From Escherichia coli (GTDB lineage: Bacteria > Pseudomonadota > Gammaproteobacteria > Enterobacterales > Enterobacteriaceae), in the NCBI RefSeq assembly GCF_024700885.2, contig NZ_CP117016.1: a stretch of 64,000 nt of DNA. The stretch is one strand, 5' to 3'. The notes beneath the pieces were generated by a model. The model was not told where the DNA came from and made no database searches. It worked only from the letters and a program-made list of their open reading frames with translations. Within the stretch, counting starts at the first letter, position 1, and each line of letters opens with the position of its first letter. This document shows positions 60,995 to 61,744 of this stretch, piece after piece. The position numbers were made by a program, and so were the translations under genes.

Positions 60995-61022
60995 AAAAAA
61001 AAGGCGACTCATCAGTCGCCTT
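60995..61022 (-). terminator. pyrE attenuator (intrinsic terminator between rph and pyrE)
   Basis: plus strand A8 run (60995-61002) then aaggcgact-catc-agtcgcctt; on the minus-strand transcript this is a hairpin followed by U8. Confidence 0.8.
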
Positions 61023-61027
61023 AAAAA

Positions 61028-61744
61028 TCAGTTTGCCAGCGCCGCCTTCTGCGTCGCTACAATGGATTCGATTCCCCCTCGGGCCAGCGCCAACAAGGTG
61101 AGTAACTCTTCATGGGTGAACGGCTCGCCTTCTGCCGTCCCCTGCACTTCAATGATGCGCCCGTCTTCGGTCATCACTACGTTCATGTCGGTCTCTGCGG
61201 CTGAGTCTTCAACGTATTCCAGATCGCAAACCGCTTCGCCGTTCACAATTCCGACAGAAACTGCGGCTACCATCCCTTTCATCGGGTTGGTTTTCAGCTT
61301 GCCGTTTTCCACCAGCTTCTGTAGCGCATCTGCCAGCGCCACGCAGGCACCCGTAATCGACGCGGTACGCGTGCCACCATCGGCCTGAAGCACGTCGCAG
61401 TCCAGCGTAATAGTGAACTCACCCAGCGCTTTCAAATCTACTGCCGCGCGAAGAGCACGGGCGATCAGACGCTGGATTTCCATTGTGCGTCCACCCTGCT
61501 TACCTTTCGCTGCTTCACGCGCGTTACGGGTGTGGGTAGAACGTGGCAGCATGCCGTACTCTGCGGTGATCCAGCCCTGGCCCTGACCTTTCAGGAAGCG
61601 CGGCACGCCTTCTTCAATAGAGGCGGTACACAATACTTTGGTATCGCCAAATTCGACCAGCACCGAGCCTTCTGCATGTTTTGTATAGTTACGAGTCAGG
61701 GTAACGGGACGCACCTGATTATTGCTACGGCCTGCTGGACGCAT
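61028..61744 (-). CDS. rph: ribonuclease PH, full length
   Basis: start at internal Met ([20 protein letters not shown]) gives 238 aa with an intact C-terminus. Confidence 0.95.

What the first reader, a model, noticed from the sequence alone, without database searches (positions are those of the whole stretch)
60995..61744. Intact rph upstream of the pyrE attenuator
rph encodes a full 238-aa protein here, unlike the frameshifted rph-1 allele of K-12 derivatives that I recall. The pyrE attenuator hairpin with its U8 tract is intact, so pyrE should be under normal translation-coupled attenuation.
Basis: partly seen in the sequence, partly recalled or inferred. Interest (0 to 1): 0.3.

Follow-up and report, generated by a model that had tools for sequence, protein, structure and literature searches.

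The report
Ordinary wild-type rph–pyrE operon
This is the normal, unbroken E. coli RNase PH gene followed by the well-known pyrE attenuator, the form found in about 97% of complete E. coli genomes, so it is correct but ordinary.

Summary
On the minus strand, 61744..61028 is a 717-nt ORF encoding a 238-aa protein. It matches the RNase PH equivalog model end to end (380.8 bits, cut-off 141.5). Compared with K-12 MG1655 (rph-1, 228 aa), the only internal indel across rph–pyrE is one extra G in a G5 run (61074-61078). That is exactly the base K-12 lacks. Five nucleotides after the rph UGA comes a 9-bp GC-rich hairpin (61022-61001) with a U8 tract (61002-60995). It folds at -16.9 kcal/mol, z = -4.4. 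The whole intergenic stretch is identical to K-12, where this attenuator was characterised. The same hairpin and T8 sit just after the rph stop in Salmonella, Klebsiella, Enterobacter and Scandinavium. Among 5,426 complete E. coli genomes, 5,244 carry the intact G5 version and 169 the G4 frameshift; the listed G4 carriers are nearly all K-12 laboratory derivatives. The window is therefore a non-K-12 E. coli (100% identical here to canine strain 1190) with the textbook rph+–attenuator–pyrE arrangement. Normal UTP-sensitive, translation-coupled attenuation is a sound inference but was not measured. The finding is already known and of low interest.

The parts
61028..61744 (-). rph, intact RNase PH gene (717 nt, 238 aa, ATG at 61744, TGA at 61030-61028)
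   Evidence: ORF list and translation. TIGR01966 RNase PH equivalog at 380.8 bits against a cut-off of 141.5, covering profile positions 1-235 of 236. Full-length match to solved RNase PH structures, e.g. 1r6l residues 3-238 of 239. The exact protein is the common E. coli RNase PH, RNPH_ECO24, seen on at least 1000 contigs. The 100%-identical stretch in strain 1190 is annotated as rph, WP_001247093.1.
61074..61078 (-). G5 homopolymer run (C5 on the + strand) in codons 222-224. K-12 rph-1 has G4 here. This is the diagnostic site for rph+ versus rph-1.
   Evidence: It is the only internal indel in the alignment with MG1655. Sequence comparison and in-silico deletion reproduce the 228-aa K-12 product. 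The 32-mer with G5 occurs in 5,244 genomes and the 32-mer with G4 in 169.
61057..61059 (-). TAG that is out of frame here but becomes the premature stop in rph-1. It lies 29 nt upstream of the normal stop and 34 nt upstream of the hairpin.
   Evidence: In-silico deletion of one G. MG1655 annotates a 687-nt truncated RNase PH with a 94-nt gap to pyrE, against 65 nt here.
61001..61022 (-). pyrE attenuator hairpin AAGGCGACU-GAUG-AGUCGCCUU (9 bp, 4-nt loop). It starts 5 nt after the rph stop codon.
   Evidence: Terminator scan. RNA fold -16.9 kcal/mol, z = -4.40. Identical to K-12. An equivalent hairpin lies 4-7 nt after the rph stop in Salmonella, Klebsiella, Enterobacter and Scandinavium, with varying loops and one altered stem that still pairs.
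60995..61002 (-). U8 tract of the attenuator (the first two U can pair with the AA at the base of the stem)
   Evidence: Read directly from the sequence. T8 is invariant in all five genera compared.
60963..60994 (-). pyrE 5' leader downstream of the attenuator, with a Shine-Dalgarno-like GAGGAG at 60975-60970
   Evidence: Read directly from the sequence. Identical to K-12. The ribosome-binding role is inferred.
60321..60962 (-). pyrE, orotate phosphoribosyltransferase (213 aa), the gene controlled by the attenuator
   Evidence: TIGR00336 pyrE at 240.6 bits against a cut-off of 106.8. Annotated as pyrE, WP_000806177.1, in the identical stretch of strain 1190.

Best explanation
This is the wild-type (rph+) E. 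coli rph-pyrE operon. rph encodes full-length RNase PH, a phosphorolytic 3'-5' exoribonuclease used in tRNA 3'-end maturation, and it also serves as the translated leader for pyrE. An intrinsic terminator, the pyrE attenuator (GC hairpin plus U8), lies between the two genes. The rph stop codon sits only 5 nt before the hairpin. A ribosome that follows RNA polymerase closely to the end of rph therefore covers the 5' arm of the stem, blocks hairpin formation and lets transcription run on into pyrE. When UTP is plentiful, polymerase outruns the ribosome, the hairpin forms and transcription stops. The K-12 rph-1 single-G deletion is absent here. That deletion would halt ribosomes 34 nt before the stem and make termination largely constitutive. 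The sequence anatomy, identity to K-12 and conservation are shown. The coupling mechanism is taken from the literature. Its operation in this strain is inferred.
For: Intact 238-aa ORF with a full-length RNase PH equivalog hit. Exact protein identical to the common E. coli RNase PH. One extra G relative to MG1655 at 61074-61078 and no other indel. Removing it in silico recreates the 228-aa K-12 product and its stop at 61059-61057. Hairpin and U8 at 61022-60995, dG -16.9, z = -4.4. Intergenic region identical to K-12. An 81-nt stretch spanning the 65-nt intergenic region is at least 99% identical in 4,550 genomes and present in 5,424 of 5,426. G5 allele in 5,244 of 5,426 genomes and G4 in 169, the listed ones almost all named K-12, MG1655, W3110, BW25113 or J53 derivatives. 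Hairpin and T8 in the same position after the rph stop in four other enterobacterial genera, with loop changes and one stem variant that preserves pairing. Mechanism and K-12 phenotype as described in PMC2784333, PMC11148124 and PMC9997739, citing Jensen 1993 and Bonekamp et al. 1984.
Against: Nothing in the sequence argues against it. No expression, UTP-response or enzyme-activity data exist for this strain. The primary papers (Jensen 1993, Bonekamp 1984) could not be read here, so the mechanistic details rest on secondary citations and established knowledge. No Rfam family covers this attenuator, so there is no independent covariance-model confirmation. Two residues differ from the K-12 backbone (A138 against V, T216 against I), but the window's version is the widespread one.
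Confidence: 0.95

Rival explanations
1. rph is intact in sequence but the hairpin is only the terminator of a monocistronic rph transcript. pyrE would then be expressed from its own promoter, with no translation-coupled control.
For: The structure is a canonical intrinsic terminator. On sequence alone it cannot be told apart from a plain end-of-gene terminator.
Against: Only 32 nt separate the U tract from the pyrE ATG, and the promoter scan found no sigma-70-like site there. The stop codon keeps a tight 4-7 nt distance from the stem in five genera, which a simple terminator would not need. The literature shows that shifting the rph stop relative to the loop changes pyrE expression and growth (PMC2784333).
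Confidence: 0.03
2. The extra G is a homopolymer sequencing or assembly error, and the strain really carries a frameshifted rph.
For: Homopolymer runs are error-prone in some sequencing chemistries. One non-K-12 genome (2015C-3101) shows G4, so length variation or miscalls at this run do occur in databases.
Against: G5 is the state in 5,244 of 5,426 complete genomes. The 1,601-nt stretch is 100% identical to an independent complete genome, strain 1190. G5 gives an ORF that matches RNase PH profiles and structures to the last residues.
Confidence: 0.01
3. The ORF is intact but the protein is catalytically impaired by its substitutions relative to K-12 (A138, T216).
For: There are two amino-acid differences from the MG1655 reading frame.
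Against: The window's exact sequence is the widespread E. coli RNase PH (UniRef RNPH_ECO24, at least 1000 contigs), so K-12 is the variant. Its score against the equivalog model is far above the cut-off.
Confidence: 0.01

Closest known systems
E. coli rph+ allele (wild-type RNase PH, UniProt RNPH_ECO24 / P0CG19-type; WP_001247093.1)
   Same: Same length (238 aa) and exact amino-acid sequence as the widespread E. coli protein. Same genomic context: slmA-pyrE-rph / yicC.
   Different: Nothing detected.
E. coli K-12 rph-1 allele (MG1655, W3110; Jensen 1993)
   Same: 26 substitutions over the 1,424 nt from the rph start to the pyrE stop, and about 98.3-98.4% identity to K-12-derived genomes over the 1,601-nt query. 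Identical intergenic attenuator.
   Different: K-12 lacks one G of the G5 run at 61074-61078. That gives residues 224-228 ESNPL, a stop after 228 aa and a stop codon 29 nt further from the attenuator. The window does not carry this lesion.
pyrE intercistronic attenuator (UTP-modulated, translation-coupled; Bonekamp et al. 1984, Poulsen et al. 1984)
   Same: Identical sequence to the K-12 attenuator on which the mechanism was worked out. Hairpin plus U8 directly after the leader ORF stop.
   Different: None in sequence. Function was not measured in this strain.
pyrBI leader attenuator of E. coli
   Same: Same logic from established knowledge: UTP-sensitive polymerase progress, ribosome coupling and an intrinsic terminator.
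   Different: pyrBI uses a short dedicated leader peptide. Here the leader is a full enzyme-coding gene (rph).

Membership tests
RNase PH (NCBIfam TIGR01966; Pfam RNase_PH / RNase_PH_C) | Full-length match to the equivalog profile above the curated cut-off | tested here: met
   380.8 bits against a cut-off of 141.5; protein residues 2-236 on profile positions 1-235 of 236
RNase PH (NCBIfam TIGR01966; Pfam RNase_PH / RNase_PH_C) | C-terminus present as in solved RNase PH structures (no truncation) | tested here: met
   Query residues 2-237 align to 1r6l residues 3-238 of 239, E = 3.7e-104; likewise to 1oyp, 3b4t, 3dd6 and 1udn
RNase PH (NCBIfam TIGR01966; Pfam RNase_PH / RNase_PH_C) | Phosphorolytic 3'-5' exoribonuclease activity | not testable with these tools
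   Needs an enzyme assay
rph+ (as opposed to rph-1) allele | G5 rather than G4 at the homopolymer in codons 222-224, with the reading frame open to codon 238 | tested here: met
   Alignment to MG1655 shows a single extra G at 61078. Translation gives 238 aa against 228 aa.
pyrE translation-coupled attenuator | GC-rich hairpin followed by a U tract between rph and pyrE | tested here: met
   Stem 61022-61001 and U8 61002-60995
pyrE translation-coupled attenuator | The leader ORF (rph) stop codon is close enough for a terminating ribosome to cover the 5' arm of the stem | tested here: met
   5 nt between the UGA (61030-61028) and the first stem base at 61022. The spacing is 4-7 nt in four other genera. 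The ribosome footprint argument comes from established knowledge.
pyrE translation-coupled attenuator | Sequence identity to the experimentally characterised K-12 attenuator | tested here: met
   No difference from MG1655 between 61078 and 60885
pyrE translation-coupled attenuator | UTP-dependent read-through into pyrE | not testable with these tools
   Needs transcript or enzyme measurements under pyrimidine limitation

The most novel reading that the evidence does not exclude
The G5 run in rph might be a recurrent slippage site in natural isolates, and not only a historical K-12 accident. It would then give occasional wild strains with low pyrE expression. One non-K-12 clinical isolate, 2015C-3101 (5.3 Mb), differs from K-12 by 24 substitutions over rph-pyrE and carries the same G4 frameshift. 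This concerns other genomes; the window itself carries the ordinary G5 state.
Probability: 0.05. Interest if true: 0.2.

Novelty: already known. Interest (0 to 1): 0.04.

Why it matters
It matters very little beyond correct annotation. It shows that the window comes from a non-K-12 E. coli with normal RNase PH and, by inference, normal pyrimidine-responsive pyrE control. The strain should therefore lack the partial pyrimidine starvation seen in MG1655 and W3110 in minimal medium. The rph-1 lesion is a laboratory-lineage peculiarity, present in about 3% of complete genomes, and the listed carriers are almost all K-12 derivatives. An intact rph is the default expectation and not a discovery.

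Tried and rejected
(1) I tried to read the primary and review literature directly: Jensen 1993 (PMC204738), Bonekamp 1984 (PMC557777) and Turnbough & Switzer 2008 (PMC2415746). None is held, so I relied on open-access papers that describe and cite them. (2) An Rfam scan of the whole window gave no family for the pyrE attenuator, only a JUMPstart element elsewhere. Absence is uninformative because no such family is curated. (3) The promoter scan found no strict sigma-70 match for the rph promoter in 61745-61870. A perfect TATAAT is visible at 61786-61781 on the minus strand, but I did not pursue it. (4) I considered an expensive genome-contig scan for comparative data and rejected it as unjustified. 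Four cheap exact-protein look-ups gave enough cross-genus comparison. (5) I considered whether the window might be an rph+ K-12 derivative such as JM83 or DH10B. I rejected this because identity to K-12 derivatives is about 98.3-98.4%, against 100% to strain 1190.

Full report
**Observation.** The region lies on the minus strand. The ORF list and the reverse-complement read show an ATG at 61744 and a TGA at 61030-61028. That is 717 nt in frame, encoding 238 aa that begin [10 protein letters not shown] and end ATQKAALAN. The next gene on the same strand is pyrE (60962..60321, 213 aa). yicC is divergent on the plus strand (61871..62734).

**Identity of the protein.** The protein matches the NCBIfam RNase PH equivalog TIGR01966 at 380.8 bits (cut-off 141.5) over profile positions 1-235 of 236. 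It aligns end to end with solved RNase PH structures, for example 1r6l residues 3-238 of 239 at E = 3.7e-104. The exact 238-aa sequence is in the public protein collection on at least 1,000 contigs, named ribonuclease PH [Escherichia coli], UniRef RNPH_ECO24. The 1,601-nt stretch 60300-61900 is 100% identical to E. coli strain 1190, a canine isolate from Edinburgh. There the genes are annotated rph (WP_001247093.1), pyrE and yicC. The stretch is present once in 5,424 of 5,426 complete E. coli genomes.

**Comparison with K-12 rph-1.** MG1655 annotates rph as 'truncated RNase PH', 687 nt. A global alignment of the window with MG1655 across rph-pyrE gives only substitutions plus one internal indel. 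The window has an extra G at the run 61074-61078, so it reads G5 where K-12 reads G4. The K-12 product diverges from residue 224 (ESNPL) and stops after 228 aa. Deleting one G from the window sequence in silico reproduces that product exactly. It places the premature TAG at 61059-61057, 29 nt upstream of the normal stop. The window therefore carries the rph+ state at the precise site of the rph-1 lesion. Two further residues differ from the K-12 frame (A138 against V, T216 against I), and the window's version is the common one.

**The attenuator.** Downstream of the stop the RNA reads UGA-UUUUU-AAGGCGACU-GAUG-AGUCGCCUU-UUUUUU-G. The scan reports a 9-pair stem (5 G-C) at 61022-61001 with a 4-nt loop. 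T8 occupies 61002-60995. The 51-nt stretch folds at -16.9 kcal/mol against -7.44 +/- 2.15 for shuffles, z = -4.40, and 0 of 200 shuffles fold as well. The pattern scan by itself is not enriched, with 3 sites against 2.0 expected, so the support comes from three other sources:
- The fold statistics above.
- Identity with K-12, since no difference from MG1655 occurs anywhere between 61078 and 60885. An 81-nt stretch spanning the 65-nt intergenic region is at least 99% identical in 4,550 genomes.
- Cross-genus conservation. In Salmonella, Klebsiella, Enterobacter and Scandinavium loci fetched through their RNase PH proteins, an equivalent hairpin begins 4-7 nt after the rph stop and is followed by an invariant T8. 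The loop sequences differ, and the Scandinavium stem is altered (GGGCGAC/GUCGCCC) but still pairs.

**How common each allele is.** A 32-mer centred on the run finds 5,244 of 5,426 genomes with G5. The G4 version finds 169. Neither query can seed on the other allele because no 28-mer is shared. The listed G4 genomes are almost all K-12 lineage: MG1655, W3110, BW25113, J53, HMS174, Keio strains and laboratory-evolution clones. The intact allele is therefore the norm, and K-12 is the exception.

**Mechanism.** The anatomy above is shown directly. The published account runs as follows. The K-12 1-bp deletion lowers orotate phosphoribosyltransferase and causes partial pyrimidine starvation. It does so because close coupling of translation to transcription is needed to read through the intercistronic pyrE attenuator. 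Moving the stop codon back towards the loop, as the recurrent 82-bp deletion in evolved MG1655 does, gave a growth-rate gain of about 15% and is proposed to restore pyrE expression, although that study's earlier expression data did not show clear pyrE up-regulation. These points come from PMC2784333, PMC11148124 and PMC9997739, which cite Jensen 1993 and Bonekamp et al. 1984. In the window the stop is 5 nt from the stem, so a terminating ribosome would cover the 5' arm. With rph-1 the gap would be 34 nt. That this strain shows normal UTP-responsive attenuation is an inference from sequence identity, not a measurement.

**Rivals.** Three alternatives were weighed.
- A plain rph terminator with an independent pyrE promoter is unlikely. 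Only 32 nt separate the U tract from the pyrE ATG, no promoter-like site lies there, and the stop-to-stem spacing is conserved.
- A homopolymer sequencing error is unlikely given identity with an independent complete genome and with 5,244 others.
- An inactive protein is unlikely because the sequence is the standard allele.

**Verdict.** The observation and the interpretation are both correct. The feature is the textbook wild-type rph-pyrE operon. It is already known and of minimal interest beyond noting that the window is not from the rph-1 K-12 lineage.

**Things tried without result.** The primary papers were not available. Rfam has no model for this attenuator.

Noticed in passing
window 62944-63213 (+), with the non-aligning stretch at 62989-63165: The gene next to yicC, dinD in K-12 (274 aa), is only a remnant here. 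A short ORF (89 aa from the ATG at 62944) shares its first residues with DinD (MNEHHQPFEEI), then diverges and stops. About 724 nt of K-12 dinD are replaced by about 177 nt of unrelated sequence before homology resumes towards yicG. Strain 1190 annotates it as an incomplete 'BRO family protein' plus an incomplete 'DnaD' fragment.
   Followed up: partly
window 53371-53409 (-): A JUMPstart RNA element (Rfam RF01707, 55.2 bits against a gathering score of 35) was the only Rfam hit in the 64-kb window. It is presumably the leader of the neighbouring LPS-core (waa/rfa) operon.
   Followed up: no
L004 (NZ_CP027221.1, E. coli 2015C-3101) 1201-1232; corresponds to window 61056-61087: A 5.3-Mb human stool isolate that is not K-12 (24 substitutions from K-12 over rph-pyrE) has the same G4 frameshift in rph, annotated 'frameshifted'. 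This is either independent slippage at the G run or a homopolymer sequencing error.
   Followed up: partly
protein cluster of P0001: The 90%-identity cluster that holds RNase PH also lists 213-aa PyrE proteins as members. This is probably a clustering artefact, for example bridging by fused rph-pyrE gene calls, and not biology.
   Followed up: no
window 61781-61786 (-) and 61831-61836 (+): Perfect TATAAT hexamers face in both directions in the rph/yicC divergent intergenic region. They are candidate -10 boxes for rph and yicC. Neither passed the strict two-hexamer promoter scan.
   Followed up: no
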